DNA from: an uncultured bacterium
GTDB lineage: Bacteria > Babelota > Babeliae > Babelales > Babelaceae
Length of the DNA stretch: 64,000 nt
NCBI GenBank assembly: GCA_963713855.1
Contig: OY970209.1
Span: forward strand, 193,071 to 257,070
Direction: 5' to 3'
A model generated the notes under the pieces. The model was not told the DNA's origin, made no database searches, and worked only from the letters and a program-made list of their open reading frames with translations. Made by a program: the position numbers and the translations under genes. Below, piece after piece: positions 1,013 to 28,340 of the stretch (position 1 is its first letter; every line of letters begins with the position of its first letter).

Positions 1013-2971
1013 TCAAAGAAGTCGTTTAAGTTCAAACCACTCTTCCCGCAACTTAATTGCGTGCTCAAAATCAAATTTTTCAGCGGCTTGGTCCATTTGC
1101 TTTTCAAGTTGCGCTATACGAGCTACAAGCGTGCTATAATCTAGTTCTTCTTTACGGCCTTTTGCTCGTTTGCCTTTAGAAGCTGCAGCAATTGCTTTTT
1201 GGAGAGGAGAAATGCTTTTAGTTACTTCTCGCTTTACCGAAAGTGGCTCAAAGTTGTGCTTTTCATTATATTCTTGCTGCAATTCACGTCGACGACTTGT
1301 CTCTTCTATCGCTGCCTGCATCGAACGCGTTATGCGATCAGCATAGAGGATGACCCTGGAATTAACATTTCGAGCTGCTCGGCCCACAATTTGTATTAAT
1401 GACCGTTTATCACGTAAAAAGCTTTCCATATCAGCATCGAGAATAGCAACAAGCGCTACTTCGGGTAAATCGAGACCCTCCCGGAGAAGGTTGACACCAA
1501 CCAAACATTCAAAAACGCCAAGGCGCAGCTTGTGTAAAAGTTCTGTACGCTGGGGTGTTTTGATATCGTGGTGCATATAGCAAACTTTTATATGATTTTC
1601 TTCAAGATAACGTGCAAGCTCTTCCGCCAATTTTTTTGTCAGCACCATGACCAATGATCGTCCACCTTGAGCGCTCACACTTTTTATAGACTCTATAAGA
1701 TTTGTCATTTGGCCTTCACGCGGGTGCACCTCAATTAAAGGATCGACTATACCTGTAGGCCTAATAACCTGTTCAACAACTTTTTGACTATGCGAAAGCT
1801 CATATTCACCAGGTGTTGCAGAAACAAAAATAACGTCTTCAAAATAGCGCTCAATCTCCTCAAACTTAAGTGGCCTATTATCACGCGCTGAAGGCAACCT
1901 AAAACCAAAATCTACCAATGATTGCTTTCTTGCTTGGTCTCCACCGTACATTCCCCGCAGCTGCGGGATGGTAATGTGGGACTCGTCAATAACAAGAAGA
2001 AAGTCGTCAAAAAAATTAAGAAGGCAATAAGGTGGCTCACCCGGCTTTCTGCCATCAAAATGGACAGAATAATTTTCGATTCCAGGACAGATTCCCGTCT
2101 CATGAAGAAGTTCTATGTCATGAGCTACACGCATTCTTAACCGTTCTTGGTAAAGCGGATTTGAAAGCTGTGGTAGCCAGCCTTCAAGCTCAGTTTCAAT
2201 ACTTTTGAATGCACTTGCTCGCTTATCATCCGTTGTGACAAAATGACGAGCTGGGAAAATAAGCACGTTATCAAGCTCAGAAAGCACTTTATTATCAAAA
2301 CGGCTTACCCACTCAAGGCGTGATATGTTGGAGCCATCAAGCTCAATACGCAATTTTTCCCTCTGATACGGAAGCAAAACCTCAATAGCTGACCCATAGA
2401 CCTGAAAGGTACCCGGCTCTTTTTGAGTTTCATTTCGCATATACTGAATATAAATGAGCTGCCGAATAAGGTCTGACCTCGTAATAGAATCACCTAACTT
2501 CAACGGAAGGGCTAATTTCTTATAATCCGAAGGGTTTCCCAACGAGTAGATGCAAGAAACTGACGCCACGACGATTGTATCAGGTCTATTAATAATAGAA
2601 GCTGTGGCCTCTATGCGAAGACGCTCTATCTCGCTATTAATCTTGGTCTCTTTAGGAATATACATATCCTGAGCCGGTAAATAAGACTCGGGCTGGTAAT
2701 AATCGTAATAACTCACAAAATAGCAGACCTTGTTTTCAGGAAAGAAGAGCGAAAACTCTTCATACAATTGCGCTGCAAGCGTTTTATTAGGAGAAAGCAC
2801 GAGAACCGGCTTATCTTGCTTTGCTATAACATTTGCGATCGTATATGTTTTTCCTGATCCGGTCACACCCATAAGCGTTGACTTTCCAGGCCTTATTGCT
2901 GAAAGTTCCTCTATCGCCCGTCCCTGATCACCGGCTGGGGCAAAAGGAGCTCGTAGTTTAAAAAGTGCCAT
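1013..2971 (-). CDS. uvrB: Excinuclease ABC subunit B (UvrB)
   Basis: 652 aa. N-terminal PxGDQ motif, Walker A GVTGSGKT, helicase motifs, and C-terminal UVR domain (EKFDFEHAIKLREEWFELKRL). Confidence 0.95.
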   Translation of the reverse strand: MALFKLRAPFAPAGDQGRAIEELSAIRPGKSTLMGVTGSGKTYTIANVIAKQDKPVLVLSPNKTLAAQLYEEFSLFFPENKVCYFVSYYDYYQPESYLPAQDMYIPKETKINSEIERLRIEATASIINRPDTIVVASVSCIYSLGNPSDYKKLALPLKLGDSITRSDLIRQLIYIQYMRNETQKEPGTFQVYGSAIEVLLPYQREKLRIELDGSNISRLEWVSRFDNKVLSELDNVLIFPARHFVTTDDKRASAFKSIETELEGWLPQLSNPLYQERLRMRVAHDIELLHETGICPGIENYSVHFDGRKPGEPPYCLLNFFDDFLLVIDESHITIPQLRGMYGGDQARKQSLVDFGFRLPSARDNRPLKFEEIERYFEDVIFVSATPGEYELSHSQKVVEQVIRPTGIVDPLIEVHPREGQMTNLIESIKSVSAQGGRSLVMVLTKKLAEELARYLEENHIKVCYMHHDIKTPQRTELLHKLRLGVFECLVGVNLLREGLDLPEVALVAILDADMESFLRDKRSLIQIVGRAARNVNSRVILYADRITRSMQAAIEETSRRRELQQEYNEKHNFEPLSVKREVTKSISPLQKAIAAASKGKRAKGRKEELDYSTLVARIAQLEKQMDQAAEKFDFEHAIKLREEWFELKRLL

Positions 2972-5094: not shown

Positions 5095-5505
5095 TCACTC
5101 TAGCTCATCGAGTAAATCTTGGCAAACTTTGGCACAGTGATTGGCATTTTTTGTTAATGCCATACATGAATCGATACAAGCACGGTCCGGCGCTCTGCAT
5201 ACTTGTGCTGTCACCTGCGCTATTTGCACCGTTTTTTTGCACGCATGCGCGACAGCTTTTACTAAATCTTCGTAGTCGGATTCGGCGGAATTCTCGTACT
5301 TTTGTAAAGCCTCCAGCGTATCGTTGCAATCGTCCACAAGTGATTCCCATATCTGAATACACCTTACGCGCTCTTCATCACATTCTATCTCGTCTGTCCC
5401 TTGGCATTCAGCGACCAAACTTTGACCGGCATCTACACTTTCTTCACAGGAATCAATACATGCATCAAGGCTTTCGATGAGATCTAATGTTAAGCTCTTT
5501 TTCAT
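5095..5505 (-). CDS. Small acidic Cys-rich protein, possible four-helix-bundle metal-binding (DUF326-like?)
   Basis: 136 aa with 12 Cys arranged as CxxxC pairs (CIDSC twice, CAKVC). Highly acidic, no signal peptide, predicted helical. Confidence 0.4.
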   Translation of the reverse strand: MKKSLTLDLIESLDACIDSCEESVDAGQSLVAECQGTDEIECDEERVRCIQIWESLVDDCNDTLEALQKYENSAESDYEDLVKAVAHACKKTVQIAQVTAQVCRAPDRACIDSCMALTKNANHCAKVCQDLLDELE

Positions 5506-5578: not shown

Positions 5579-6811
5579 ATGAGGTCTTCCGTATTTTTTC
5601 TTTCAAAAGAGCAACAAATGAGTACATTTTTTAAAATAGTTTACACTAGCCATAAATACATCATAGACTCAACGAAAAAGGATAAAGGGAGAAAAAAAAT
5701 GTATAGAACGGTAGGCTTTCTTATGTTATTAAACACTATGTTTTTGTCACCTATTTCAACAACTGAGCACCCCAACTCCACGAGCATCGATATACATGAT
5801 TCAATAGATAATTTTAAAGCGACCCCCATTACCATTGTTCGAAGAGCTGCCTTTGACATCGGCTCTTTGACGACAAAAATGATTGTTGCTGACGTTGATA
5901 CAAAAACAAAGAAAATTGTGCGAGTTCTTCTTAAGGACGTACGCCGTGTCGGTTACAAGAATGATCTTGAACGTCCATCAAGTGATGGCAACTTTACAAA
6001 AGATCTTATAGAAGAAGGTGTTCAAGGGCTACGAGAGCTAAAAGCTCAAGCAGAAGGTCTTTCACCAGCACCTCAAGAATATGTAGCTGTAGCCACTGCA
6101 GCGCTACGAGCAGGGCTTAATAGTCAAGCAGTCGTTTCTACTATTAAACAGAAGCTTAATATACCCGTCTACATTATTAACCAAGATGAAGAAGCTCGCC
6201 TAGGCTTTAACGGAGCTATTATTGCTGTTGGATCAGATCCGCTCAAAACACTTGTATGGGATATGGGTGGCGGAAGCATGCAGATGATAGCTCACAAAGA
6301 TGGCACATTGCTTACCTACGGTAACGAGCTAGGGTTTATAGCATTTGCTCGTAAAGTAATGTCTGAGATCCAGGGTAAAGAACTTGATGCAAAGGCTACC
6401 CCAAATCCTTTAAGCCTTGATGATGCAACTGAAGCTATCGAATTAGCAAGCAAGCTAGCGCTAAAGCTGCCTTCTTTTGTGCTGGAAAAAGCAAAAGATC
6501 CTTCAACAAGAGTGATCGGAATCGGAGCGCTCTATTACGCAACACATGGCCCAGAACTTCGAGTTCAAACAAATCTCATTGATGGTTTGCCTCAACGTGG
6601 CATTTTAACACGTCTTATGTACAGAATAAGAAAAACTGATGAAGAATTGATACCGCTTACTCATAAAGCGATACCCACGCTTGTAAGCGCAACCTCATTG
6701 GCCCTCATTCTTGGATTTATGAAAGGGCTTTCACTTGAAGAATTAACAACTGTCGAAGTCAATATGACCGATGCTCTTTTAGTAGATGAACAGTATTTTA
6801 AACTTAAATAG
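5579..6811 (+). CDS. ASKHA-fold nucleoside phosphatase (Ppx/GppA-family or CD39/NTPDase-like) with signal/TM-like N-terminus
   Basis: 410 aa. Phosphate-binding motifs AAFDIGSLTTKMIV and LVWDMGGGSMQMIAH (DxGS...T and DxGGGSxQ). Alternative start at 5699 (MYRTVGFLMLLNTMFL) gives a hydrophobic leader. Confidence 0.6.
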   Translation: MRSSVFFLSKEQQMSTFFKIVYTSHKYIIDSTKKDKGRKKMYRTVGFLMLLNTMFLSPISTTEHPNSTSIDIHDSIDNFKATPITIVRRAAFDIGSLTTKMIVADVDTKTKKIVRVLLKDVRRVGYKNDLERPSSDGNFTKDLIEEGVQGLRELKAQAEGLSPAPQEYVAVATAALRAGLNSQAVVSTIKQKLNIPVYIINQDEEARLGFNGAIIAVGSDPLKTLVWDMGGGSMQMIAHKDGTLLTYGNELGFIAFARKVMSEIQGKELDAKATPNPLSLDDATEAIELASKLALKLPSFVLEKAKDPSTRVIGIGALYYATHGPELRVQTNLIDGLPQRGILTRLMYRIRKTDEELIPLTHKAIPTLVSATSLALILGFMKGLSLEELTTVEVNMTDALLVDEQYFKLK

Positions 6812-6819
6812 GCCTAGTT

Positions 6820-7704
6820 ATGAAAAAGAACCTCGCTTCTTGGATGACAAATCCTGACAAAGTCCTTTTTCCCAAAAGCGGAATCACCAAATCTGATCTT
6901 GCTGATCATTACGAGAACGTAGCTCCTTTGATGATTCCGCTTATAAAAAATCACCCTATAGCCATGCAGCGCTTTCCAAATGGGATCGACCAAGAAGGAT
7001 TTTACCAAAAAGATATGCCAAGCTATTTTCCTTCCTGGATTGATCGTGTGGAGATTAAAAACAAAGACGGATCGCATACGACCTACGTTATGTGCCAAAA
7101 TGCCAAAACACTTGTTTATTTAGCTTATCAAGCATGCATCACCATGCATGAGCTTTTAAGTAGATCAGACAAGTTACAGTATCCCGATCGGATGATTTTT
7201 GACTTAGATCCGGGACCAGGTGTCACCTTTTCCCTCATTAAAAAAACAGCTCTCCTCATAAATGCGCTTTTATCTAACAATGGGATGACTGCTTTTACCA
7301 TGACAACCGGTTCTCGAGGTATGCACGTCGTAGTACCTTTACGCCGCATGTATACTTTCAAATACACCCATGCATATGCTCAACACATTGGACAAATACT
7401 TGTAGCTGCACACCCTGATCTTTTCACCGTTTCGGTAAGTAAAAAGGAGCGTAAAGGCAAAATTTTTATAGATTTTATACGCAACACCTTTGGGCATATG
7501 GCAGTAGCTCCTTATGCAGTACGACCTATCGAAAATGCGCCCGTTGCAACACCACTTGCCTGGTCGGAAATAAAAGATCCACGTCTTGAATCACAATCGT
7601 ATACGATCAAAAATATAGGCGCACGCATAAAAAAAGTTGGTGACGTATGGCCTGACTTTTTAAAAATAAAAAACAGACTGCCCTCAACCATTAAAAGTTT
7701 TTAG
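6820..7704 (+). CDS. LigD-type primase-polymerase domain protein (NHEJ PolDom, AEP superfamily), standalone
   Basis: 294 aa. Catalytic motifs MIFDLDPGPG (DxD) and TTGSRGMHVVVPL (SGxxGxH), and size typical of LigD Pol domains. 8 nt downstream of the previous gene on the same strand. Confidence 0.7.
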   Translation: MKKNLASWMTNPDKVLFPKSGITKSDLADHYENVAPLMIPLIKNHPIAMQRFPNGIDQEGFYQKDMPSYFPSWIDRVEIKNKDGSHTTYVMCQNAKTLVYLAYQACITMHELLSRSDKLQYPDRMIFDLDPGPGVTFSLIKKTALLINALLSNNGMTAFTMTTGSRGMHVVVPLRRMYTFKYTHAYAQHIGQILVAAHPDLFTVSVSKKERKGKIFIDFIRNTFGHMAVAPYAVRPIENAPVATPLAWSEIKDPRLESQSYTIKNIGARIKKVGDVWPDFLKIKNRLPSTIKSF

Positions 7705-10338: not shown

Positions 10339-12795
10339 TTATGCGTTTTTGTCCTTGACGACAAAATTGACAAGGCGATCTGGAACACTAATCACGCGAA
10401 CAAGCTCTTTATCTTGAAGCCAGGAAGCGACTGATGCACGCGCTTGCTTTTCAATATCTTCCGGTTCAGTTGAAGGGGCCACAAGCAAAGTACCGCGTAG
10501 TTTTCCATTAACCTGAACAGCGATTGTCAACTCATCCGGTGCTGCTAGAGCCTCATTATATGAAGGCCATGTCACGTCCCAAAGCTGCTTTGACAAAAGT
10601 TTTTCGAGAAGCTCACTTGCAATATGTGGAGCCAAAGGAGAAAGAACAGCAAGTACCTGGGATGCAGAATTCTTACTGAGTCGCATCGATTGAGCATTCG
10701 CTTCATTAAGCCATTCCATAAACGCTGACACCACTGTATTAGGCTTAAAAAGATCTAAACGCTCTTGAACATGCTTAAGCAGCCTGTGTACGTGCTTTGT
10801 TACTCTTTCATCTTCCTTTTGCCCTTCAGCCAAAATGGTAGTAGGATCTGACATGTAAGTCCAAAAACGATTTAAAAACCTCTTACAGCCTTCAATACCA
10901 GCATCTTGCCATTCAGCATCAAGCTCCGGAGGTCCCATAAAAAGAATATAGAGACGTAAAGCATCAGAGCCGTAGAGCGTCACCATCTCATCGGGATTTA
11001 CGACATTGCCTTTCGATTTAGACATTTTTTCTACAAGTCCCGTTTTTTCAGAATATTTGCAAATCATACCCTGGTTAAATAAGCGCGTAAAAGGCTCGTC
11101 AAAAGGAAGATGCCCAAGATCATAAAGAACTTTAACATAAAACCGTGCATACAAAAGATGTAAAACTGCATGCTCGATACCCCCTACATATAAATCGACT
11201 GGCAGCCAATAGCGCATGCTATCGGGCGTAAAAGCTGTATTATCGTTATGCGCATCCGGATAACGTAAAAAATACCAACATGAGCCGGCCCATTGTGGCA
11301 TCGTATTTGTTTCTCTACGTGCGGGACCCTTGCACTGTGGACAGGTCGTTTGAACCCAATCAAGCACGTGCGCCAATGGCGATTCGCCAGTACCTGTAGG
11401 GTAATACTGCTCTACGTCAGGTAACTTTACCGGCAAGTCGATCTCCGGAACAGGGACAATGCCACACTTTTGACAATGCACAAGTGGAATGGGTTCTCCC
11501 CAATAGCGCTGACGCGAAAAGACCCAATCACGAAGACGATAATAGGTGGAAGGTCGCGCGTAGCCCTTTTGAACGCAATAGCGGATGATATCCTGTCGCA
11601 CATCACCTGCCCTTTTTCCAGCAAATATAGCAGGCTCTGAGAGAATGCCGTTCTTCATATCGGTATAAACTACCTCTAAGCGCTTTACTTGATCTTTAAG
11701 AATCGGGTCCTCTGGAAAAAGAACAGTTTTAAGTGGGATATTATATTTTTTAGCAAATTCAAAATCACGTTCATCGTGGGCGGAGCACTTTACAATACCA
11801 GTTCCATAATGCGCTAAGGCAAAACTCGCTACCCAAATAGGAAGCTCGCTCTTACTTACCGGATCAAGGATGTACCTACCAGTAAAAATGCCCTCTATCT
11901 CGGGTTCAACAGCAGCACCAGAACCGCGCTCTGAAAGTATTCTTGCACAAAATGCTTCTACATCATCTTTCTGTGCGACGCCCTCAATAAGCTTAGGTAA
12001 CAGCGGATGATCAGGCGCAATAACAACAAAGGTATCTGCCTCAAAAGTTTCAAAATGAGCAGAAAACGTCTCAATCGTTAAAGACATATCTTTAACCGGC
12101 GCTGAAAAAACTAGACCTTCGCTCTTTCCGATCCAATTTCGTTGCATAAGCTTAACTTTTTCAGGCCATGCTAATCTGTCTAAACCTTCTAAAAGCTTAT
12201 CAGCATAGCGCGTTATGCGAAGCATCCACTGTTTTAATTTGCGCTGGCTTACAATCGTACCACATCGCTCGCAACCACCACGCACAACCTCTTCATTAGC
12301 AAGGCCTACGAGACATGATGGACACCAGTTAATGAGTGTTTCAGCTTGATAGGCAAGACCCGCCTTATACATTTCTAAAAATATCCACTGGGTCCATTTA
12401 TAGTAAGAAGGATCAGTGGTATTAACCTCTTTAGACCAATCGTAAAGAGCACCGGTATCTCGTAGTTGCCGTTTAAAGGTAGCTATATTAGCTGCTGTGC
12501 TTACTGCTGGATGAATACCCTTTTTAATAGCATCATTTTCAGCAGGTAAACCAAAAGCATCCCACCCCATGGGATGAAGTACGTTATAGCCTTCCATCCA
12601 TTTGATGCGTGCATAGATATCAGAAAGGACATATCCACGCCAGTGGCCTACATGTAAGCCACTACCAGAAGGGTAGGGAAACATATCAAGGCAATAATAT
12701 TTTGCCCCTGATCCAAGCGGACGAGCGTACCCTATATCTTTCAAAGCCCAGATAGATTGCCATTTCTTTTCTATCTCGCGCGCATTATATTCCAT
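10339..12795 (-). CDS. leuS: Leucyl-tRNA synthetase
   Basis: The ORF extends to 12894, but the LeuRS-like N-terminus begins at MEYNAREIEKKWQ (12795). Motifs PYPSGSGLHVGH (HIGH-like) and KMSKS. About 820 aa. Confidence 0.92.
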   Translation of the reverse strand: MEYNAREIEKKWQSIWALKDIGYARPLGSGAKYYCLDMFPYPSGSGLHVGHWRGYVLSDIYARIKWMEGYNVLHPMGWDAFGLPAENDAIKKGIHPAVSTAANIATFKRQLRDTGALYDWSKEVNTTDPSYYKWTQWIFLEMYKAGLAYQAETLINWCPSCLVGLANEEVVRGGCERCGTIVSQRKLKQWMLRITRYADKLLEGLDRLAWPEKVKLMQRNWIGKSEGLVFSAPVKDMSLTIETFSAHFETFEADTFVVIAPDHPLLPKLIEGVAQKDDVEAFCARILSERGSGAAVEPEIEGIFTGRYILDPVSKSELPIWVASFALAHYGTGIVKCSAHDERDFEFAKKYNIPLKTVLFPEDPILKDQVKRLEVVYTDMKNGILSEPAIFAGKRAGDVRQDIIRYCVQKGYARPSTYYRLRDWVFSRQRYWGEPIPLVHCQKCGIVPVPEIDLPVKLPDVEQYYPTGTGESPLAHVLDWVQTTCPQCKGPARRETNTMPQWAGSCWYFLRYPDAHNDNTAFTPDSMRYWLPVDLYVGGIEHAVLHLLYARFYVKVLYDLGHLPFDEPFTRLFNQGMICKYSEKTGLVEKMSKSKGNVVNPDEMVTLYGSDALRLYILFMGPPELDAEWQDAGIEGCKRFLNRFWTYMSDPTTILAEGQKEDERVTKHVHRLLKHVQERLDLFKPNTVVSAFMEWLNEANAQSMRLSKNSASQVLAVLSPLAPHIASELLEKLLSKQLWDVTWPSYNEALAAPDELTIAVQVNGKLRGTLLVAPSTEPEDIEKQARASVASWLQDKELVRVISVPDRLVNFVVKDKNA

Positions 12796-12809
12796 TAGAA
12801 GGGTCCCTT

Positions 12810-13976
12810 TTAGAAGAAGCTCTTTAATAAGGCATATCCTATAACACCTGCCAAAGTAAGTCCAACAGGTAATTTGATTGAAGTAAAGCCCCATAGTTTA
12901 TACATAGCATTGCATGCGGCTATAACAATCAACACCGGATAAAGCATCTGAATAAGAGGCATTGAAAACTTCATAATAGCTGAAAGACCCAACGAGGCCG
13001 GAATTAAACACGCCGCAAGAACCCCTAGAAGAGCCCAGGTGTATCCGACGCTTTGAGAAAGAATTTGAATATGAATGTATTCCGTAACAACTGCAGTTAA
13101 CGCAACTGTTGTCGTAAAGCAGGCCAAGAAAACAGTAAAGCCAATAAGCGCAGCTCCATACGTTCCCAAAATGTTAAAGGAAACAGCGCTAAAAAGCTGC
13201 CCCTCATTTAAATGCTCGAGTCCTTGCCCATGAAAAGCTCCCAAGAAATTCATGCCAGCATAGACAAGCCCAAGTAATGCGGCCGCGGCGATCCCAGCCA
13301 TAAGGGCAATGCGTATGCGACCAGATGCATTCTGTGAATCACCTTCATGCATCTTGAGCATGCCAACAACAATAGATCCGAAAAAGATGGTGCCTAATAA
13401 GTCAAGCGTACCAAACCCATACTGTGCGCCGGTTTTGAAAAGCTCTGAAGCAGATGTGGTAACAGCTTGAGGACTTAGTCCCGAAAAAAGGCCCGCAAGA
13501 ACAATGATACATAAACTGAGCACTTTTAAAGGGCTTAAAAAAGTACCAATAACTGTAAGAAGCTTAGTCGGTCTATACGTAGCCAAGAAAACCAAACTCA
13601 AAAATGCAAACGCAAATACACTGACATGCATAGACGGCAAAAACGGCGTAAGCATTTCATAAGACAAACCAACAATACGTGGCATGACGATGATTGGACC
13701 TAAAACAAGCATGCAAAGGAATGTGGCAATTGCCCCAGGTATTCGCCCTAAACGCCCAAAAAATGCTTTATAATTCCCATCAAACGCGATAATGGAAAGT
13801 AGACCAAGCAGTGGTAGTAGAACGCCGGTAAGAATAAATCCAATAAGGCCCCACGTACTTTTAGAGCCTGCCAAAAGACCGACTTTCAAGGGCAGCATAA
13901 GATTGCCGGCCCCAAATAACATAGCAAATATTGCAAGACTTACCTGTACTACTTGTACCCATGATTTAGAACGCAT
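12810..13976 (-). CDS. brnQ: Branched-chain amino acid transport system II carrier (LIVCS family)
   Basis: 388 aa and about 12 TM segments. N-terminal FAMLFGAGNLMLPL...GFILTGVLLPLLGLL matches the BrnQ signature. Immediately upstream of leuS on the same strand. Confidence 0.8.
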   Translation of the reverse strand: MRSKSWVQVVQVSLAIFAMLFGAGNLMLPLKVGLLAGSKSTWGLIGFILTGVLLPLLGLLSIIAFDGNYKAFFGRLGRIPGAIATFLCMLVLGPIIVMPRIVGLSYEMLTPFLPSMHVSVFAFAFLSLVFLATYRPTKLLTVIGTFLSPLKVLSLCIIVLAGLFSGLSPQAVTTSASELFKTGAQYGFGTLDLLGTIFFGSIVVGMLKMHEGDSQNASGRIRIALMAGIAAAALLGLVYAGMNFLGAFHGQGLEHLNEGQLFSAVSFNILGTYGAALIGFTVFLACFTTTVALTAVVTEYIHIQILSQSVGYTWALLGVLAACLIPASLGLSAIMKFSMPLIQMLYPVLIVIAACNAMYKLWGFTSIKLPVGLTLAGVIGYALLKSFF

Positions 13977-14918: not shown

Positions 14919-16130
14919 CTAGCTTTTCTTGTAGAGCTTTGCAACAAGTTGACCTGCAAATTGCCAGCTTATGATGTTCCCACGAGTTCTTACTTGATTT
15001 GCTTGACCACCGTAGACGACATAGCTATCAGATGGTTTTGTACCAGATAATTCATTCCACTGGGCGAGGCCTTTAAAAAAATCTAATGAGATAGTTTGAG
15101 AAGATTTAATTTCGATAGGATAAAGTTTCGCTTCAATCTCTAGAATACAATCAACCTCTATCCTCCCATTACTATCGCGCCAAAAATAAATCGGTGGTCG
15201 CTTACCGAGGTTATAAAACTGCTTTGCAAAGTCAGTAATTATAAGGTTTTCAAAAAGAGCTCCTCTAAAGGGACTTTGAGCTAGAATTTTTGAAGACGTT
15301 ATGCCAAGTAAGCTGCAGGCAACACCGGTATCATAAAAATAGAGTTTTGGAGTTTTTGTAAGACGCTTATTAAAATTATTAAAATGCGGCTGTAACACAA
15401 ATACTACATAGCTTGCCTCTAAAATAGAAAGCCATCTATGAACAGTTGGCAGGCTTATCCCACACTGCGTGGCTAGATCGGACAAATTTAGTAGCTGCCC
15501 GATTCGTCCCGCGCACAAAGACAAAAACTTTTGAAAAGTTCTCAAATCACCAACGTTAACTAATTGACGAACATCTTTTTCCACGTAACTGTGAATGTAT
15601 GAAGAAAAAAAATCTTGAAGAGCAAGTTCCTGATCATAAAGTCGTGGATAGCCTCCTTTTATAACCGCGTCATTGATAAACTCAGGCCTTATCTTGTTTT
15701 CTTTAAGCTCATGAAGCGAAAGCGGTAACAAGGTAAAAATAGCAGTTCTACCGGCCAGTGACTGGGTTATTGCTTGATTCATCAAAAAGTTGTGTGAACC
15801 GGTCAAAATGAAATATCCAGCTCGCTTTTTTGTATCAACTTCAAGCTGTATGTAAGATACAATGCTCGGTACATACTGAAATTCGTCAAGGATAACTCCG
15901 TGCTTGTTTTCGTTGTCACTTAAAAATCCTCGAGGATCGCTCGCAGCAAATTCCCTTATTGCTGGATCCTCAAAGGAAATATAGCTATGTTTTTTAAATA
16001 CACTCCTGACGAGGGTTGTTTTTCCTGATTGCCTCGGCCCAAGAACAACAACAACGGGAAATTTTGCACCCCTAACTAAAGAGGCTTTCAAATCTCTTTT
16101 AAACATAATAAACCTGTGCTGATTTAACAT
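14919..16130 (-). CDS. AAA+ ATPase with DUF4143-type C-terminal domain (COG1373-like)
   Basis: 403 aa. Walker A VVLGPRQSGKTT; C-terminal region homologous to the remnant at 22778-23271. The first 6 codons lie inside the flanking repeat; an alternative start at Met9 (16106). Confidence 0.75.
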   Translation of the reverse strand: MLNQHRFIMFKRDLKASLVRGAKFPVVVVLGPRQSGKTTLVRSVFKKHSYISFEDPAIREFAASDPRGFLSDNENKHGVILDEFQYVPSIVSYIQLEVDTKKRAGYFILTGSHNFLMNQAITQSLAGRTAIFTLLPLSLHELKENKIRPEFINDAVIKGGYPRLYDQELALQDFFSSYIHSYVEKDVRQLVNVGDLRTFQKFLSLCAGRIGQLLNLSDLATQCGISLPTVHRWLSILEASYVVFVLQPHFNNFNKRLTKTPKLYFYDTGVACSLLGITSSKILAQSPFRGALFENLIITDFAKQFYNLGKRPPIYFWRDSNGRIEVDCILEIEAKLYPIEIKSSQTISLDFFKGLAQWNELSGTKPSDSYVVYGGQANQVRTRGNIISWQFAGQLVAKLYKKS

Positions 16131-22777: not shown

Positions 22778-23271
22778 TTGGTCGCCCCTAAAATCCCAAC
22801 GTTTCTTGAAGGTAGAGCCAAATACTATAAGAATTTCAGTAAACGGTTGATTAAATCACCAAAGTTATTCTTTTATGATACTGGTCTAGCCTCCGATTTA
22901 CTTGATATTGAAAAGCAACTTAATTCCCACTACTTAAGGGGTGGACTTTTTGAGTCTTTCGTTATCTCTGAGCTTTATAAAAGCTTCTATAATGCTGACA
23001 AGGTTCCTCACTTTTATTTTTGGCAAGAGCACGAGGTTGACTATATTATTGAAAGAGGGCAAGACTTATTCCCTTTGGAAATAAAAGCTGGATTAACAAT
23101 TACCCCTGATTATTTTAAAGGGCTTAACTATTGGAATAATCTCAGAGATGAATCCCAATAAAGGATTTGTAGTGTATGGAGGAACTCAAGATTTATTTAG
23201 GTCGCTAGGTAATATAATGAGCTGGCGTAATATTTCAAATATTTTGGCAAGAACAAAAGACGAATCCTGAA
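22778..23271 (+). pseudogene. Remnant of a DUF4143 AAA+ ATPase gene (C-terminal third only, with an internal frameshift near 23160)
   Basis: 22778-23161 translates to SPKLFFYDTGLASDLL...FYFWQEHEVDYIIE...LEIKAGLTITPDYFKGL, homologous to the C-terminal domain of the 14919-16130 protein. A different frame from 23164 continues GFVVYGGTQDLFRSLGNIMSW..., matching that protein's last 35 aa. No Walker A half upstream. Confidence 0.7.
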
Positions 23272-23318: not shown

Positions 23319-24074
23319 TTAAACCGAAGTGGCATTAATAAGAAATAAAGGATGCCAACGTGTATACAGCTCGTCTATCTCAGCCTTGTCTCCTGGCAAC
23401 ACTGAGAAAAAAAGCCGCTCTGTATGAATTGGAGGCTCCGAATGGATAGCTGAAGCATGCTCATCGCCAACTATAAAAAAAGCACCAAAACCTCGGTTCG
23501 GAGATTCAGCCTTAGTGCCATCTAAAAGCTTGTTGAGTGCAATTTGATTTCGCTCGTTTACAATGAATGTTTCTCTTAATTCCTCAGGTAATCTATAAAA
23601 GAGAGTTTGTGGACCTTTTAAAGCCGCGACAAATTTGACGGGAAATCCAGAATAAAGAGGATAGTAGTATCCATCTACATGCCAACGGGGTTGATCAAAA
23701 GCAGGGCTAGGTACGAAAGAGCGGACACATACCCATGCCGTTTCTTTACCACACGCTTTTGCAACTTTTAGAGCTGTCTCGAGTATTATTTCGGTAACCG
23801 TTTGTATGGCGCGCTCATCATCATTACCTATGGCACGTAAAAACGCTGGCAACTCATGCTTAAGGACATTTAAATCACCAAACCGGTCATAGCTTTTTTG
23901 AGCATCAACTTTTAATGTGCGATCGATAAAAGAAAGCACATGAGCAGGTATTTCAAGATCAACATATACAAAGCCGTTGCTTGCATTCAGGTTTTGAGGC
24001 CCAGAAATCAGTTGGATATTCTGAGCACCAAGAAAAAAAGAAAATGAGCAGATAAAGACCAATTTATTAAACAT
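23319..24074 (-). CDS. Hypothetical secreted protein
   Basis: The ORF extends to 24146, but Met25 (24074) gives signal peptide MFNKLVFICSFSFFLGAQN and avoids overlap with the downstream gene. No recognisable domain. Confidence 0.5.
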   Translation of the reverse strand: MFNKLVFICSFSFFLGAQNIQLISGPQNLNASNGFVYVDLEIPAHVLSFIDRTLKVDAQKSYDRFGDLNVLKHELPAFLRAIGNDDERAIQTVTEIILETALKVAKACGKETAWVCVRSFVPSPAFDQPRWHVDGYYYPLYSGFPVKFVAALKGPQTLFYRLPEELRETFIVNERNQIALNKLLDGTKAESPNRGFGAFFIVGDEHASAIHSEPPIHTERLFFSVLPGDKAEIDELYTRWHPLFLINATSV

Positions 24075-24105
24075 AGCTCCCTCAATGTATTCTAAAGCAA
24101 GTTCT

Positions 24106-25293
24106 TTACGCTGATTCACCATCGTCAAATATATCAAAAGTATCAAAGATGCTTTCGTGTTTCCATGTCGGGCTCCAGTTGTGTCTAATAAAGCTTTGAA
24201 TGGAGACGATAGAGTTATAAAAATTGTCAGAGTAACTCAAAGACTCACTTAAATACTCATGTGCGGTCTTTATGCGAACTTTGATAGAATTTTTCCCACA
24301 AAGAATATAAGCGCGAAGACCGCTATAAAACGGATGATTATTGATCTGTTGCAAAAGAATAGGCGCAAGAACGACCACGGGCAACTCAAGCATCTCATGT
24401 AACGCGTTTTCCTGAAGCGCGAATAAATTGTAATGATTAACCGCTTGACCATTCTTATTAACCCATATGCCAACATCTGCACGCTGAAGCTTTGGATTTT
24501 CGTGCTTAAACGTTCTCAAATCGATAATTTCCGACATGTCTGCATAACTTTGACCTTGTGTCGTAACCGAGTCAAGCGTCTGAATCGAGTCACCTTCAGG
24601 TGAACGAAAGAGGATGATCGATTTAAACATGGGCGACAGAATCGAATCAATCATTTCGACTTGTATGGGGGTACCATATAAACAGAGCTGATCTATCAAA
24701 AGATGGCGTTTATAATGCTCTTCAGCCCTCATAATGCCAAGCGCCACGTTACCTCCATGACTATAAGCATTGATTCTTAAAAGAGGCTTAACGCCATATT
24801 TTTTTTCATATTCGTCTACCCAGTCTGCTAGAGCCAGATAGAGCTTAAAACTCTCTTCCATGCGATTAAAGGAGTCAAGCATGCCTGACCAGCCAAAAAG
24901 AGCATAATAATCTTTCTCCGAAGCAAAACCTGAAACACGTGCAAGTTCATCATAACCTGCCAGCATGTAGTAGGCCCCAAAACGAGAACGTTCTCGTGAA
25001 AGGTTTCCCTTACGAGCAGCTTCAATAAGCGAAGTAGGAACTTCTCGAAAACCAGGACTCAACATCATATTTTGCTGATAGGTATCAGGGTCATTTCTAT
25101 CACGTAAGAGGAGCGTTTCATAGTTTCCGCCCTTTTTTGCGCGCCCATCCCCCCAAAACCATTTCGTATCCACAAACGCTAAACCTGGTTTTACAGTGCC
25201 GTGTATAAAAACGGTCAGCGTTGGTGTAGCCTCAATAAAGCCTGAAGATATGAGAATATACAGAATGAAAAATGGTATTTTTTTTAAAAACAT
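24106..25293 (-). CDS. Secreted lipase/esterase-like alpha/beta hydrolase (paralog of 32684-33604)
   Basis: 395 aa. Signal peptide, and shared motif INAYSHGGNVALG (nucleophile-elbow-like). Paralog elsewhere in the window has VLAYSHGGNVALS. Confidence 0.55.
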   Translation of the reverse strand: MFLKKIPFFILYILISSGFIEATPTLTVFIHGTVKPGLAFVDTKWFWGDGRAKKGGNYETLLLRDRNDPDTYQQNMMLSPGFREVPTSLIEAARKGNLSRERSRFGAYYMLAGYDELARVSGFASEKDYYALFGWSGMLDSFNRMEESFKLYLALADWVDEYEKKYGVKPLLRINAYSHGGNVALGIMRAEEHYKRHLLIDQLCLYGTPIQVEMIDSILSPMFKSIILFRSPEGDSIQTLDSVTTQGQSYADMSEIIDLRTFKHENPKLQRADVGIWVNKNGQAVNHYNLFALQENALHEMLELPVVVLAPILLQQINNHPFYSGLRAYILCGKNSIKVRIKTAHEYLSESLSYSDNFYNSIVSIQSFIRHNWSPTWKHESIFDTFDIFDDGESA

Positions 25294-25360
25294 GTCTTAT
25301 CCTCCTTAACATTATTGAGTATAAAGACTTGCGCAAGGATGTCGAGCCTAAATAGGAGGA

Positions 25361-26281
25361 TTATAACTCCTTTTGGCCTTTACAATAGGCAGAAAATACC
25401 TCATCAATGACGCGTGGGCGAGGATTTTCCTTACAAAGCTCGTCTATGAGCCCAAGCGTCTCTTGATCCAGTCGTTTATCAGCTTCTGTTAACTGGCGAT
25501 ATATGGCCCTAACAGTATTGTTTATCGCTGATAAATCTCTATCAAAGGCAATTTGGTACATATAACGACGCACACGAGGATATAAAAAATAGCAGGCAAC
25601 AGCACTATGTACCATACCAGCCACTATTAAAACCGCTGGTGCTATCTCGTGTCTAGAAATATTCACATGCCCAAAAGTACCCACGACAGCAACTAATTCT
25701 GCTGCACCAGCGAGAAATACTAATAAGTGGCATAATATATAGGGCAGGATCCATGCTGGACCCTCGGCCTCGTATCTCCTGCTTAATTGGATAAGGTGAT
25801 ATAACAGGGTATGTTGAGGTAACACAGCATCCCACTCTTCTTCTTGAGCCGCATTTGCTGGTGGAAGTAATCGATAGCGATATTCGCGTATCAAGTAATG
25901 TGATGGATCTAGTCCAGATTCTCGCATTTCTTTCATTATTTTCTGAGCCAAACTCAAACCTTGTAAAATCGTAATTTGTGCGGCTGGATTGGCAAAAAAT
26001 TTCCTGAGCGCGCTAATATCAGCCTCCCTATGCAAATTAAAAATCTGCTCTAACTCAATTCGACGTAGGTGGGCCAGCTGGGTTTCAGAAAGTCCTGTTG
26101 CCCATTGTTGGCTCAGTGCTCCTATAGGAACTGATTGATCGGTAACTCGTGGCAGCGAAGTTGAAGGTGGTTCCCATTGTCTTCTTGAACCTGATTCATC
26201 CTCTTCCATCCCATAACTTATAAAAGAAGATTGCAAGCTAAAAAAAATAAAGGCAAAGGCTACTATCTTAGACACATTCAT
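25361..26281 (-). CDS. Inc-like membrane protein, paralog family A copy 1
   Basis: 306 aa. N-terminal hydrophobic leader, shared WEPPSTSL motif, bilobed hydrophobic domain (LLVFLAGAAELVAVVGTFGHV...APAVLIVAGMVHSAVACYFLY), and C-terminal tail similar to the adjacent copy. Confidence 0.5.
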   Translation of the reverse strand: MNVSKIVAFAFIFFSLQSSFISYGMEEDESGSRRQWEPPSTSLPRVTDQSVPIGALSQQWATGLSETQLAHLRRIELEQIFNLHREADISALRKFFANPAAQITILQGLSLAQKIMKEMRESGLDPSHYLIREYRYRLLPPANAAQEEEWDAVLPQHTLLYHLIQLSRRYEAEGPAWILPYILCHLLVFLAGAAELVAVVGTFGHVNISRHEIAPAVLIVAGMVHSAVACYFLYPRVRRYMYQIAFDRDLSAINNTVRAIYRQLTEADKRLDQETLGLIDELCKENPRPRVIDEVFSAYCKGQKEL

Positions 26282-26335
26282 ACAATACTCCTTAAAAACA
26301 CATTTTTTTTCTTAAAATATATCAATGCGTTGTCG

Positions 26336-27118
26336 TCATAGATTGCATTTTTCGTCTTTACAAAACACCCCAAAAACCTCAGTTAATAAACGCGAGTTGC
26401 GGTTTTGAGCATAAAGACTTTTAATAAGCCTGATTGTCTCTTCGTCTATCTCTATATTTGAAGCTTCCATGTAACTATACAACCTTTCTATCACACCATT
26501 TATCGAGGCTAACTCTTTTTTAAAAATTGATATTGAAAAAAGGGAAACCAAATAGGGGTATAGGTAATACCCCAACACTATCGCGCTAAAGAGTGCGCCT
26601 ATTGTAAGCGGTTTGTTATTCGTTAATAACCGTGTAATGATAGGCAGCAATGCTGAGATAACAAATGTTGCAAGGAATAAAGGAATACTACCGGGCCCTC
26701 TTTGCTCATATCGCGCACTTAACCGAACGAGATGAAATAAAATCGTATGTCCATATACTTGTTTCCATTCCTGTAGTAGGTATCGTGATGGATCTAGCTT
26801 ATATTCCCTGAGTTCGCGTATTAGATGTTCTATCGCATTTAGATTTTTTTCGATATTTTTAGAGCCCCAGTGAGTAAAAAATCGTCGTACCTGCTCAATA
26901 ACCCGCGCATTCCTTCGATTAAAAGAAGCTTCTGCTTCTTCTCTATCTCCATAGTCTCGAATACCTTCATTACCCTGTGTATGTCGTTGACGTAATTCTT
27001 CAAGAGAAGTTGAAGGAGGAGTCCAGACCTGCCTTGGCACCTGATCACCTCCATCATTCATTCCACAGGCTGAACTATAAAAAAGAAATACTGCGCTTAA
27101 GCATAGAAACCTGTTCAT
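26336..27118 (-). CDS. Inc-like membrane protein, paralog family A copy 2
   Basis: 260 aa. WTPPSTSL, LFHLVRLSARYEQRGP (vs LYHLIQLSRRYEAEGP), bilobed hydrophobic domain, and C-terminal ...LTEVFGVFCKDEKCNL (vs ...IDEVFSAYCKGQKEL). Confidence 0.5.
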   Translation of the reverse strand: MNRFLCLSAVFLFYSSACGMNDGGDQVPRQVWTPPSTSLEELRQRHTQGNEGIRDYGDREEAEASFNRRNARVIEQVRRFFTHWGSKNIEKNLNAIEHLIRELREYKLDPSRYLLQEWKQVYGHTILFHLVRLSARYEQRGPGSIPLFLATFVISALLPIITRLLTNNKPLTIGALFSAIVLGYYLYPYLVSLFSISIFKKELASINGVIERLYSYMEASNIEIDEETIRLIKSLYAQNRNSRLLTEVFGVFCKDEKCNL

Positions 27119-27131
27119 ATACGGTGCCTTT

Positions 27132-28340
27132 TTAGATAATTATAGTAGAAGTATCGTCACGCAGCCTTTCACGATCTTGGCTAGGTTGTGTTTCTTCCAA
27201 AGCTTTTTTTGTGGCCTTCAAGGGAAGACCTTTTATAACACACTCTTTAGTTATCTGTGTAACTGCAGGCACTTTTTGGTCATATCCGCACTCCAAGCCT
27301 GAATCATAAGAAATTGTATACCCTTCGCGCATAAGCATATTTACGATGTTGCTTGTGTGAGCATAGCCTGCTAAAACGTAATAAAAAGCCCCATCACTCT
27401 TCAAAAGCCCCTTTATAAATGCAAGATCTATTATTAAAAGAGTATCTCGAAACTCTCGATTAAGTTTTTTTATAAGGCCATCAAGAAGTGTAATGGTAGC
27501 AACATCAAAATCACGATAAATGCTCAAAACAAAAGTCATATATGTCGTTGTAAAATCCGCTTTTGGGTCAAAACCAAGATAACGTTGCAGATCAATCCAT
27601 GCCGCTTTGTAGTCTTCCATCGAAGAGATGAAAGCATCAGTAATGCGCACATTTTCTTTATTTTCAAAAAGAGTCAAACAGCCTCGAGCTGTCTCGATCC
27701 ATCCATCAATAGCTGCAAGCACCGTACTAAACACCTTCTCAACCGTTAAACCATGACGCACGCCCGTACGTTTACAAGCCGCCAAATCTCTTTCGCTTAA
27801 AAAAAGATAGTTACTCATATTTTGAAGGTCAAAAAGGGTCGCAAGATTAACGATAATAGCACGATCGTCTGGAAAAAGAGCACGATTATCACCTTGAAGG
27901 CTTTCAGCAAGTACCTCTAAGGTATTAGTATCGTCATTAGCAAGAAATTGTTTCTTAATTATTAAAGCAGCGTTTTTGCATTCGTTTTTATCACTTTTGT
28001 TAAGCAAGCAACTGCAATACTTATCAGCAGCCGTCAGTTCTGCAGTTTTATCATAATAAGGATAGTGCGCTTCGATAAAAGCGCATGCGCTATCTTGTAA
28101 GCAGTTTTTATCAAAACTCTTAAGAAGTAATTCTGTTTCTTTTAAAGCTTTTTGCGCCAAGGGCTCTTGCTTATTCGCATCAGGAATCTCATGACGAAAT
28201 GCGTGTTTTACACCAATGAAAACTATCTTTTCAGGACCTTTCAACGCGGAGTCCTTTTTTAATGCTACCAAGTTTGTAATATCCGCGTTTAACAAAGAAA
28301 AAGGGATCAGGAAGATAAGCGCAACGATAAATCTGCCCAT
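27132..28340 (-). CDS. Secreted hypothetical protein, paralog family B copy 1
   Basis: 402 aa. Signal peptide; N-terminal VALKKDSALKG and C-terminal AGYAHTSNIVNMLMREGYTISYDSG conserved with the 40309-41496 protein. Confidence 0.5.
   Translation of the reverse strand: MGRFIVALIFLIPFSLLNADITNLVALKKDSALKGPEKIVFIGVKHAFRHEIPDANKQEPLAQKALKETELLLKSFDKNCLQDSACAFIEAHYPYYDKTAELTAADKYCSCLLNKSDKNECKNAALIIKKQFLANDDTNTLEVLAESLQGDNRALFPDDRAIIVNLATLFDLQNMSNYLFLSERDLAACKRTGVRHGLTVEKVFSTVLAAIDGWIETARGCLTLFENKENVRITDAFISSMEDYKAAWIDLQRYLGFDPKADFTTTYMTFVLSIYRDFDVATITLLDGLIKKLNREFRDTLLIIDLAFIKGLLKSDGAFYYVLAGYAHTSNIVNMLMREGYTISYDSGLECGYDQKVPAVTQITKECVIKGLPLKATKKALEETQPSQDRERLRDDTSTIII

What the first reader, a model, noticed from the sequence alone, without database searches (positions are those of the whole stretch)
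5579..7704. Standalone LigD-type primase-polymerase gene directly after a signal-peptide-bearing Ppx/GppA- or NTPDase-like gene
The 6820-7704 product carries the DLDP and SGxxGxH motifs and the size of NHEJ polymerase (PolDom) domains. No ligase, phosphoesterase or Ku gene is nearby in this window. It sits 8 nt downstream of an ASKHA phosphatase gene, a pairing not typical of NHEJ loci. An isolated AEP primase-polymerase in an obligate-intracellular-type genome is unusual. It could work in DNA repair or gap filling, or as part of an undescribed nucleotide-based system together with the phosphatase.
Basis: partly seen in the sequence, partly recalled or inferred. Interest (0 to 1): 0.7.

Follow-up and report, generated by a model that had tools for sequence, protein, structure and literature searches.

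The report
Stand-alone NHEJ-type repair polymerase gene
The gene at 6820-7704 is an intact stand-alone DNA-break-repair polymerase of the well-known LigD/NHEJ family, in a small intracellular-type (Dependentiae-like) genome, and its position next to a secreted phosphatase gene is an accident of local gene order, so the finding is real but largely ordinary.

Summary
Window 6820-7704(+) encodes a 294-aa full-length LigD-type primase-polymerase (PF21686 286 bits; TIGR02778 above cutoff). It is about 52% identical to the characterised Methanocella paludicola NHEJ polymerase (PDB 5DMU). The catalytic Asp triad, NTP motif, 5'-phosphate pocket lysines and Arg/Pro/Phe strand-displacement wedge are all conserved. 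The upstream gene is a signal-peptide-bearing two-domain Ppx/GppA-fold phosphatase whose real start is probably 5699, not 5579. No Ku, ATP-ligase or phosphoesterase gene lies in the 64 kb.

Stand-alone is the norm in this subfamily. Among 86 related loci, 61 have the LigD phosphoesterase beside the polymerase, 20 a ligase, 1 a Ku and 23 none. The Ppx-polymerase adjacency occurs in only three close relatives (64-100% identity), drifts apart in two more, and is absent elsewhere. The phosphatase is exported, and no defence or phage model matches. UvrB places the genome in Dependentiae (TM6), where this polymerase is widespread. The gene sits at a conserved leuS-brnQ locus under purifying selection (dN/dS about 0.1).

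Best reading: a resident AP-NHEJ-type gap-filling and end-extension polymerase. Whether Ku and ligase exist elsewhere in the 1.52 Mb genome could not be tested. New member of a known kind; low-to-moderate interest.

The parts
6820..7704 (+). Stand-alone AP-NHEJ / LigD-type primase-polymerase (PolDom), 294 aa, all functional motifs intact
   Evidence: PF21686 285.8 bits full length; TIGR02778 261 bits, above cutoff. Best PDB hit 5dmu, the Methanocella paludicola NHEJ polymerase, 291 bits. Weaker hits: Mtu PolDom 2iru 173 bits and Prim-PolC 5op0/6sa0 135 bits. Invariant D128/D130/D218, S165/G167/H169, K24, R51, P53 across 23 homologues. dN/dS 0.07-0.11.
5699..6811 (+). Secreted (signal-peptide-bearing) two-domain Ppx/GppA-fold ASKHA phosphatase, 370 aa. 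The longest ORF would start at 5579. Probably co-transcribed with the polymerase but functionally unrelated to it.
   Evidence: PF02541 73 bits. Gene callers start at 5699. RBS GGGAG lies upstream of 5699. AF2 pLDDT 89.4 with low confidence over residues 1-44. Foldseek best hit 1t6c, TMt 0.80, with NTPDases ranking lower. Family invariants D53, E165, D188-x-G-G-x-S193-x-Q195.
6812..6819 (+). 8-nt intergenic spacer between the phosphatase stop codon and the polymerase start codon. No terminator-like or promoter-like site lies between the two genes on the + strand.
   Evidence: Sequence read directly; promoter/terminator scan.
5640..5669 (+). Promoter-like site (TTTACA-18-TAGACT) upstream of the 5699 start. 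Weak consensus evidence only.
   Evidence: The number of such sites in the region is not above the shuffled expectation.
10339..12894 (-). leuS (leucyl-tRNA synthetase), followed by brnQ at 12810-13976(-). This is the conserved syntenic anchor of the polymerase gene in related genomes.
   Evidence: PolDom-leuS-brnQ order is seen in the window, L002, L087, L004 and L088.

Best explanation
Window 6820-7704 encodes a functional stand-alone DNA repair polymerase of the archaeo-prokaryotic NHEJ (LigD POL / PolDom) family. It is a long-standing chromosomal resident in a Dependentiae-like intracellular bacterium.

Mechanism, inferred from close homology to characterised enzymes:
- It docks on the 5'-phosphate of a broken or gapped DNA end through the K14/K24 pocket.
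- It splays the template with the R51/P53/F61/Y62 wedge.
- It uses the D128/D130/D218 metal site to extend the 3' end, filling short gaps or adding a few nucleotides, preferentially ribonucleotides. This leaves a nick for a ligase to seal.

Its partners are not in this window. They are either encoded elsewhere in the 1.52 Mb genome as a dispersed NHEJ set, as in Methanocella-type loci where Ku is unlinked, or they are replaced by housekeeping enzymes such as LigA.

The Ppx/GppA-like gene 8 nt upstream is an unrelated exported phosphatase. It shares a transcript with the polymerase only because of lineage-specific gene order.

Shown here: family membership, intact motifs, purifying selection, conserved locus, non-conservation of the Ppx pairing. 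Inferred: the biochemical activities and the identity of the partners.
For: - HMM membership lies above curated cutoffs.
- The protein is about 52% identical over its full length to the crystallised and biochemically characterised Mpa NHEJ Pol, 5dmu (PMC4797286).
- Every residue that PMC4797286 names as functionally critical in Mtu PolDom (K16, R53, P55, F63, F64, catalytic Asps) has a conserved counterpart: K14, R51, P53, F61, Y62, D128/D130/D218.
- dN/dS is 0.07-0.11 with near-saturated dS among orthologues.
- A monophyletic clade of 8 orthologues is nested among Dependentiae/TM6 sequences.
- PolDom-leuS-brnQ synteny is conserved.
- UvrB and PolDom identities fall in the same order for the four relatives whose UvrB lies on the same contig as the polymerase: 89/76, 81/64, 77/56 and 76/54%. 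This fits vertical descent.
- GC content is not anomalous. No tRNA gene was found in the window, and the adjacent genes match no phage-family model.
- Ppx adjacency holds in only 3 of 86 loci. Ppx homologues elsewhere lack a PolDom neighbour.
- The Methanocellaceae locus L051 has PE-Lig-Pol with no Ku within 10 kb, so an unlinked Ku is compatible with working NHEJ in this subfamily.
Against: - No Ku, ATP-dependent ligase or PE lies within the 64 kb window, nor within 8-10 kb in any of the 7 closest relatives. The gene cannot be shown to belong to a complete NHEJ system.
- 75% of conventional NHEJ genomes keep ku within 10 kb of ligD (PMC7719229).
- The 8-nt spacing and the absence of an intervening terminator mean co-transcription with the phosphatase is likely. 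Some regulatory coupling cannot be excluded.
- No activity has been measured.
Confidence: 0.75

Rival explanations
1. Ku-independent housekeeping repair polymerase. The lineage has lost, or never had, Ku, the LigD ligase and PE. It keeps only the PolDom, which fills short 5'-phosphorylated gaps (single-strand-break or base-excision repair intermediates), perhaps with ribonucleotides when dNTPs are scarce. NAD-dependent LigA seals the nick. This is a variant of the best explanation that differs in the partners.
For: All 8 members of the clade lack Ku, Lig and PE within 8-10 kb. The gene is nevertheless under strong purifying selection across saturated synonymous divergence. 18 of 64 related loci with at least 3 kb of flank on both sides also have none of the three. 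Precedent from my own knowledge: mycobacterial stand-alone POL paralogues, with Prim-PolC acting with LigC in excision repair (solved structures 5op0/6sa0 appear).
Against: The protein is much closer to bona fide NHEJ polymerases (291 and 173 bits) than to Prim-PolC (135 bits). Absence of partners from 64 kb out of 1.52 Mb says little about the genome as a whole. Methanocella-type genomes keep Ku unlinked.
Confidence: 0.35
2. The phosphatase and the polymerase form a two-gene nucleotide-based system, for example signalling or defence.
For: 8-nt spacing, same strand, no terminator between the genes. The pair is kept in three genomes at 64-100% PolDom identity.
Against: The pair separates by 2.5-3.7 kb in L008 and L004, and is absent from L007, L088, L089 and the other loci. 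Ppx homologues at 49% and 34% identity have no PolDom nearby. The phosphatase carries a signal peptide in all orthologues. There are no PADLOC or PHROGs hits. The polymerase retains all DNA-break-binding features.
Confidence: 0.03
3. Decaying remnant of a lost NHEJ operon, or a recently acquired mobile-element primase.
For: The PE partner found next to the polymerase in 61 of 86 related loci is missing here.
Against: The ORF is intact, with all catalytic residues invariant and dN/dS about 0.1. It sits at a conserved chromosomal locus next to leuS with normal GC. No tRNA gene was found in the window, the Pfam scans of its ORFs list no integrase family, and the adjacent genes match no phage-family model. 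Its phylogenetic position lies within the host phylum's sequences.
Confidence: 0.03

Closest known systems
Methanocella paludicola NHEJ polymerase (Mpa Pol, PDB 5DMU; PMC4797286)
   Same: Stand-alone protein of about 300 aa. About 52% identity over residues 9-280, 291 bits. Same catalytic, 5'-phosphate-pocket and wedge residues. The Methanocellaceae locus L051 likewise has no Ku within 10 kb.
   Different: Mpa-type loci keep PE and ligase genes directly upstream of Pol (L051: PE-Lig-Pol). The window has neither within 64 kb. The host here is a bacterium with a reduced genome.
POL domain of bacterial LigD (M. tuberculosis Rv0938 PolDom, PDB 2IRU/3PKY/4MKY; P. aeruginosa LigD, 2FAO)
   Same: Same family (PF21686, TIGR02778). 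Same functional residues. 173 and 131 bits.
   Different: In those organisms POL is fused to ligase and PE in one polypeptide, and ku is usually adjacent (75% within 10 kb, PMC7719229). Here it is a separate gene with no partner nearby.
PE-Pol two-gene modules of Dependentiae/TM6 and Parachlamydiaceae MAGs
   Same: These are the nearest phylogenetic neighbours, at 47-54% identity, from the same kind of small intracellular-type genomes. The polymerase is stand-alone, and there is no Ku within 10 kb.
   Different: Most of them have the LigD 3'-phosphoesterase directly upstream or fused, and 12 also have an MBL-fold gene upstream of that. The window's 8-member clade has lost this adjacency.
Mycobacterial stand-alone POL paralogues (Prim-PolC/PolD1 with LigC; PDB 5OP0, 6SA0)
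   Same: Stand-alone AEP of the LigD-POL family working outside a fused LigD. This is a model for a Ku-independent gap-filling role.
   Different: Clearly more distant (135 bits against 291 for the NHEJ Pol). There is no adjacent LigC-type ligase here.
Aquifex aeolicus-type short Ppx/GppA phosphatase (PDB 1T6C), for the upstream gene
   Same: Two-domain ASKHA fold without the C-terminal domains, TM 0.80. The DxGS and DxGGGS phosphate motifs and the EEAR Glu are conserved.
   Different: About 19% identity. It carries an N-terminal signal peptide. An invariant Gln occupies the position after GGGS-x where, from my own memory, PPX enzymes have Glu and NTPDases have Gln. Substrate unknown.

Membership tests
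AP-NHEJ polymerase / LigD POL domain (PF21686, TIGR02778) | Full-length match to the family HMMs above curated cutoffs | tested here: met
   PF21686 285.8 bits (cutoff 27.4), profile 1-254/254. TIGR02778 261.1 bits (cutoff 214.7).
AP-NHEJ polymerase / LigD POL domain (PF21686, TIGR02778) | AEP catalytic Asp triad (DxD plus a third Asp) and the SxH nucleotide-binding motif | tested here: met
   D128, D130, D218, S165, G167 and H169 are invariant in 23 homologues. They align to Mtu D137/D139/D227 and the SGSKGLH motif.
AP-NHEJ polymerase / LigD POL domain (PF21686, TIGR02778) | 5'-phosphate binding pocket lysines and the strand-displacement wedge (Mtu K16, K26, R53, P55, F63, F64) | tested here: met
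   K14, K24, R51, P53, F61 and Y62 by ungapped alignment to 2iru. Residue roles are taken from PMC4797286. K24, R51 and P53 are invariant and F61 nearly invariant.
AP-NHEJ polymerase / LigD POL domain (PF21686, TIGR02778) | Template-dependent polymerase/primase activity with ribonucleotide preference | not testable with these tools
   Needs biochemistry.
Complete AP-NHEJ system (Ku + ATP-dependent ligase + Pol, with or without PE) | Ku gene present | tested here: inconclusive
   None in the 64 kb window, nor within 8-10 kb in 7 orthologous loci, by jackhmmer with a Ku seed validated at 180 bits on PF02735. The remaining 1.46 Mb or so of the genome could not be read.
Complete AP-NHEJ system (Ku + ATP-dependent ligase + Pol, with or without PE) | ATP-dependent DNA ligase (LigD LIG) and 3'-phosphoesterase present | tested here: inconclusive
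   Neither is in the window or in the flanks of the clade. The same searches found them in 20 (Lig) and 61 (PE) of the 86 related loci. Genome-wide presence is not testable.
Complete AP-NHEJ system (Ku + ATP-dependent ligase + Pol, with or without PE) | Genomic linkage of ku with ligD (75% of conventional NHEJ genomes within 10 kb; PMC7719229) | tested here: not met
   Only 1 of 86 loci of this subfamily (L061) has Ku within 10 kb.
Prim-PolC / LigC excision-repair module | Closer to Prim-PolC than to LigD-POL, with an adjacent LigC-type ligase | tested here: not met
   135 bits to 5op0/6sa0 against 291 to 5dmu and 173 to 2iru. No ligase in the window.
Ppx/GppA phosphatase family (upstream gene) | HMM match above cutoff and a two-domain ASKHA Ppx fold | tested here: met
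   PF02541 73.2 bits (cutoff 27), though only profile positions 26-152 of 285 match. The AF2 model matches 1t6c over about 329 columns, TMt 0.80.
Ppx/GppA phosphatase family (upstream gene) | Exopolyphosphatase or pppGpp hydrolase equivalog | tested here: not met
   The NCBIfam exopolyphosphatase/GppA equivalog and related models score far below their cutoffs: 80 against 307, 47 against 864, 45 against 624. Substrate not testable.
Anti-phage defence or other conserved two-gene system (Ppx + PolDom) | Conserved gene pairing across lineages, or a match to known defence models | tested here: not met
   The two genes are directly adjacent only in the window genome, L002 and L087. They are 2.5-3.7 kb apart in L008 and L004, and the pairing is absent from the remaining loci. 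There is no PolDom near Ppx homologues. PADLOC gives 0 hits.

The most novel reading that the evidence does not exclude
This Dependentiae lineage, and perhaps much of the phylum, lacks Ku and an ATP-dependent ligase altogether. Under this reading the NHEJ-type polymerase is kept under strong selection as a Ku-independent repair enzyme: alone here, paired with the 3'-phosphoesterase and often an MBL-fold protein in related genomes. One possible role is ribonucleotide-based gap filling and 3'-end healing in an energy- and nucleotide-parasitic cell, with LigA sealing the nick. That would define a minimal PE-Pol break-repair module distinct from canonical NHEJ.
Probability: 0.3. Interest if true: 0.5.

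Novelty: new member of a known kind. Interest (0 to 1): 0.25.

Why it matters
The finding adds one more stand-alone NHEJ-type polymerase, from a poorly studied intracellular phylum (Dependentiae) that the 2020 survey of bacterial NHEJ did not cover.

It would matter more if whole-genome scans showed that these reduced genomes keep the polymerase, with or without the phosphoesterase, but have no Ku or LigD ligase. That would point to a Ku-independent role for PolDom-type enzymes. It would also give a natural minimal system for studying what these ribonucleotide-preferring polymerases do outside double-strand-break joining.

The suggested link to the neighbouring phosphatase does not hold up, so no new nucleotide-based system is indicated.

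Tried and rejected
1. Finding Ku or ligase elsewhere in the same genome was not possible. The tools expose only the window plus about 10 kb. The window's genome did not appear among the loci returned by the GTDB-representative scan. Extending from the last window gene reached only a 6.9 kb Logan contig. A Ku query would not have ranked this genome's copy within the 120 rows shown.
2. Obtaining a chlamydial Ku sequence (CCB86018.1) from paper supplements failed: it is not held.
3. Naming the organism from 90%-identity clusters of 17 window proteins or PolDom homologues gave no names.
4. The initial idea that the organism is a chlamydia was rejected. It rested on Ppx-like hits named Parachlamydiaceae at about 34% identity. 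UvrB's best named relatives, at 70-72%, are Ca. Babeliaceae/Dependentiae.
5. The metagenome-contig scan for closer relatives found nothing above 44-45% identity.
6. Literature searches for NHEJ or LigD in Dependentiae or Rhabdochlamydia found nothing specific.
7. The defence-system and phage-family libraries gave no hits.
8. Rfam found nothing and ARAGORN found no tRNA gene in the window.
9. The unannotated ORFs directly upstream of the polymerase in L004 (250 aa, Cys-rich, secreted-looking) and L006/L007 (201 aa, membrane/coiled-coil) were considered as possible divergent Ku or PE. This was rejected. The L004 ORF has no Pfam hit. The Ku and PE jackhmmer searches of these loci found nothing there. 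The two sequences are unrelated to each other.
Full report
**What is in the sequence**

Two same-strand ORFs occupy 5579-6811 and 6820-7704, separated by 8 nt.

The downstream 294-aa product matches Pfam LigD_Prim-Pol end to end (PF21686, 285.8 bits, profile 1-254/254). It also matches NCBIfam ligD_pol TIGR02778 above its curated cutoff, 261 against 214.7 bits.

The upstream product matches Ppx-GppA (PF02541, 73 bits), but only over the N-terminal half of the profile. It falls far below the NCBIfam exopolyphosphatase/GppA cutoffs.

Independent gene calls on an identical public contig start the upstream gene at 5699, giving 370 aa. That start has a GGGAG ribosome-binding site. A promoter-like site at 5640-5669 would lie inside the longer ORF. 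From 5699 the protein begins with a signal-peptide-like sequence, and the orthologues do the same.

No terminator-like or promoter-like site separates the two genes on the + strand. Co-transcription is therefore likely.

**The polymerase is a canonical NHEJ-type enzyme**

Its best match among solved structures is the Methanocella paludicola NHEJ polymerase 5dmu, at 291 bits and about 52% identity over residues 9-280. Next come M. tuberculosis PolDom 2iru (173 bits), mycobacterial Prim-PolC 5op0/6sa0 (135 bits) and P. aeruginosa LigD-POL 2fao (131 bits).

Bartlett et al. (PMC4797286) name the residues that matter in Mtu PolDom:
- K16, in the 5'-phosphate pocket;
- the R53/P55/F63/F64 wedge, which drives strand displacement;
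- the catalytic aspartates.

K26, the second 5'-phosphate-pocket lysine, is added from my own knowledge of Mtu PolDom.

In the ungapped part of the alignment these map to K14, K24, R51, P53, F61/Y62 and D128/D130/D218 of the window protein. In an alignment of 23 homologues, K24, R51, P53, D128, D130, S165, G167, H169 and D218 are invariant.

Pairwise Nei-Gojobori estimates among orthologues give dN/dS of 0.07-0.11 with dS near saturation. The gene is intact, maintained and almost certainly active.

**Partners**

No ORF of at least 120 aa in the 64 kb hits Ku, ATP-dependent ligase or LigD_N.

I then searched the six-frame translation of the window and of all fetched loci by jackhmmer with three seeds:
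- a ligase seed, confirmed on PF01068/PF04679;
- a PE seed, confirmed on PF13298 (all three).

The window gave no hit for any of the three.

**How related genomes arrange the gene**

The 120 best homologues are almost all single-domain proteins of 289-333 aa. A few are PE-Pol fusions of 465-510 aa.

I fetched 80 loci from species-representative genomes and several loci for the closest relatives. The 86 distinct loci break down as follows:

| Gene found within the held flanks | Loci (of 86) |
|---|---|
| PE (42 of them within 300 nt of the polymerase or fused to it) | 61 |
| ATP-dependent ligase (mostly PE-Lig-Pol in Flavobacteriaceae and methanogens) | 20 |
| Ku | 1 |
| None of the three | 23 |

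Among the 64 loci with at least 3 kb of flank on both sides, 18 have none of the three.

Stand-alone polymerases, and polymerases without a linked Ku, are therefore the rule in this subfamily. This contrasts with conventional LigD genomes, where 75% have ku within 10 kb (PMC7719229). PMC4797286 already notes that in many organisms Lig, Pol and PE are separate proteins.

**The window's clade and its locus**

A neighbour-joining tree places the window protein in a monophyletic group of eight: the window, L002, L087, L004, L008, L007, L088 and L089. Identities to the window run from 54% to 76%. None of the eight has PE, ligase or Ku within 8-10 kb. The group is nested among Dependentiae/TM6/Babeliales sequences that mostly carry PE-Pol.

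Within the clade the polymerase sits upstream of a convergent leuS followed by brnQ. This order is seen in the window, L002, L087, L004 and L088.

UvrB and PolDom identities fall in the same order for the four relatives whose UvrB lies on the same contig as the polymerase: 89/76, 81/64, 77/56 and 76/54%.

GC content is unremarkable. ARAGORN found no tRNA gene in the window, the Pfam scans of its ORFs list no integrase family, and the adjacent genes match no phage-family model.

Together these results indicate old, vertical residence rather than recent horizontal acquisition or a mobile element.

**Organism**

The exact protein lies on an unnamed 1,521,901-bp NCBI/ENA contig.

The best named relatives of UvrB, at 70-72% identity, are Candidatus Babeliaceae and Candidatus Dependentiae. 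No chlamydial name appears among the 120 best hits. Named PolDom relatives are also Babeliales/Dependentiae.

The genome is therefore most likely a member of Dependentiae (TM6, 'Babelota'). Described members of that phylum are intracellular parasites of protists (PMC6561590). Ankyrin-repeat genes in the window fit this lifestyle.

**Is the phosphatase a partner?**

No. The Ppx-like gene abuts the polymerase, with gaps of 2-8 nt, only in the window genome, L002 and L087. It lies about 2.5 kb upstream in L008 and about 3.7 kb upstream in L004, with unrelated genes in between. It is absent within 10 kb in L007, L088, L089 and all other loci.

The converse also holds. Ppx-like homologues at 49% and 34% identity have no PolDom nearby.

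The family has about 200 detectable members. Its named ones are Parachlamydiaceae and Protochlamydia.

The AlphaFold model (pLDDT 89) is a two-domain Ppx/GppA fold. The best match is A. aeolicus 1t6c at TM 0.80, and NTPDases rank lower. The first 44 residues or so are of low confidence, consistent with an export signal.

The family keeps the ASKHA phosphate motifs and the EEAR Glu. It has an invariant Gln after GGGS-x. From memory, that position is Glu in PPX enzymes and Gln in NTPDases; I did not test this.

An exported phosphatase and a chromosome-bound polymerase are unlikely to act on a common substrate. PADLOC gives no hit for either protein.

**Most likely function**

The gene encodes an AP-NHEJ-type repair polymerase that recognises 5'-phosphorylated break or gap ends and extends the 3' end. 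By analogy with Mtu and Mpa enzymes (PMC4797286), it probably prefers ribonucleotides and produces a ligatable nick.

Two versions remain open:
- a dispersed NHEJ system, with Ku and ligase elsewhere in the genome. Methanocella-type loci such as L051 also lack a linked Ku, although that organism has working NHEJ;
- a Ku-independent gap-filling role with LigA.

I cannot separate these, because the rest of the genome is out of reach.

NHEJ in intracellular amoeba-associated bacteria is not new. Sharda et al. list Parachlamydiales as a lineage that gained NHEJ, and a Parachlamydia Ku is on record (PMC11936186). Their survey did not include Dependentiae. I found no paper that discusses LigD-family genes in that phylum.

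**Verdict**

The claims that the arrangement is unusual, and that the pair forms a new system, are not supported.

This is a new member of a known kind. The residual interest lies in whether Dependentiae keep Pol (and PE-Pol, often MBL-PE-Pol) without Ku and ligase.

Noticed in passing
Loci L010, L013, L018, L019, L022, L026, L034, L054, L062, L074, L075, L081 (e.g. L026:9208-9927, L034:6636-7355): An MBL-fold gene of about 240 aa (PF12706 Lactamase_B_2) sits directly upstream of the PE-Pol pair in 12 Dependentiae-type loci. In L026 it sits directly upstream of Pol. This suggests a conserved three-gene MBL-PE-Pol end-processing module. It is absent from the window.
   Followed up: partly
window 1013-2971 (uvrB) and the whole window: The best named UvrB relatives, at 70-72% identity, are Ca. 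Babeliaceae/Dependentiae. The window therefore comes from a Dependentiae (TM6) genome, not a chlamydia.
   Followed up: yes
window 5699-6811: The secreted Ppx/GppA-fold family has an invariant D-x-G-G-x-S-x-Q motif, with Gln where, from memory, PPX enzymes have Glu and NTPDases have Gln. It is shared between this Dependentiae lineage and Parachlamydiaceae/Protochlamydia at about 34% identity. It may be an exported nucleotide or polyphosphate hydrolase of amoeba-associated bacteria. Substrate unknown.
   Followed up: partly
window 5095-5505 (-): A 136-aa acidic, Cys-rich protein with no Pfam, PADLOC or PHROGs hit. It is conserved divergently upstream of the Ppx-like gene in the window, L002 and L087.
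   Followed up: no
window 14919-16130 (-) and 22778-23161 (+): A full AAA_14 + DUF4143 ATPase gene, and 6.6 kb away a 127-aa fragment matching only the C-terminal part of DUF4143. The fragment is probably a pseudogene remnant of a paralogue.
   Followed up: no
window 23319-28340 (-): A run of five consecutive same-strand ORFs (275, 395, 306, 260 and 402 aa) without any Pfam hit.
   Followed up: no
L088:22-9787: Four tandem ORFs of similar size (721-749 aa), none with a Pfam hit on record, lie directly upstream of the orthologous PolDom. They occupy the place where the window has the Ppx-like gene. Their relatedness to each other was not tested.
   Followed up: no
Flavobacteriaceae loci, e.g. 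L067:7562-8344: An Fpg/Nei DNA glycosylase gene lies within about 0.7-1.8 kb of the polymerase in 9 loci, upstream of PE-Lig-Pol in 8 of them. This hints at linkage of base-excision and end-processing genes in that group.
   Followed up: no
window 10339-12894 (-): The longest leuS ORF (851 aa) is 33 codons longer than the 818-aa gene call on the identical public contig. It overlaps the end of brnQ, so the annotated start is probably the shorter one.
   Followed up: no
window 60311-63780 (-) and L108: A 972-aa secretin gene is followed by a 184-aa ORF. On the Logan contig a PilM-like gene comes next, suggesting a type IV pilus or type II secretion cluster at the window's end.
   Followed up: no
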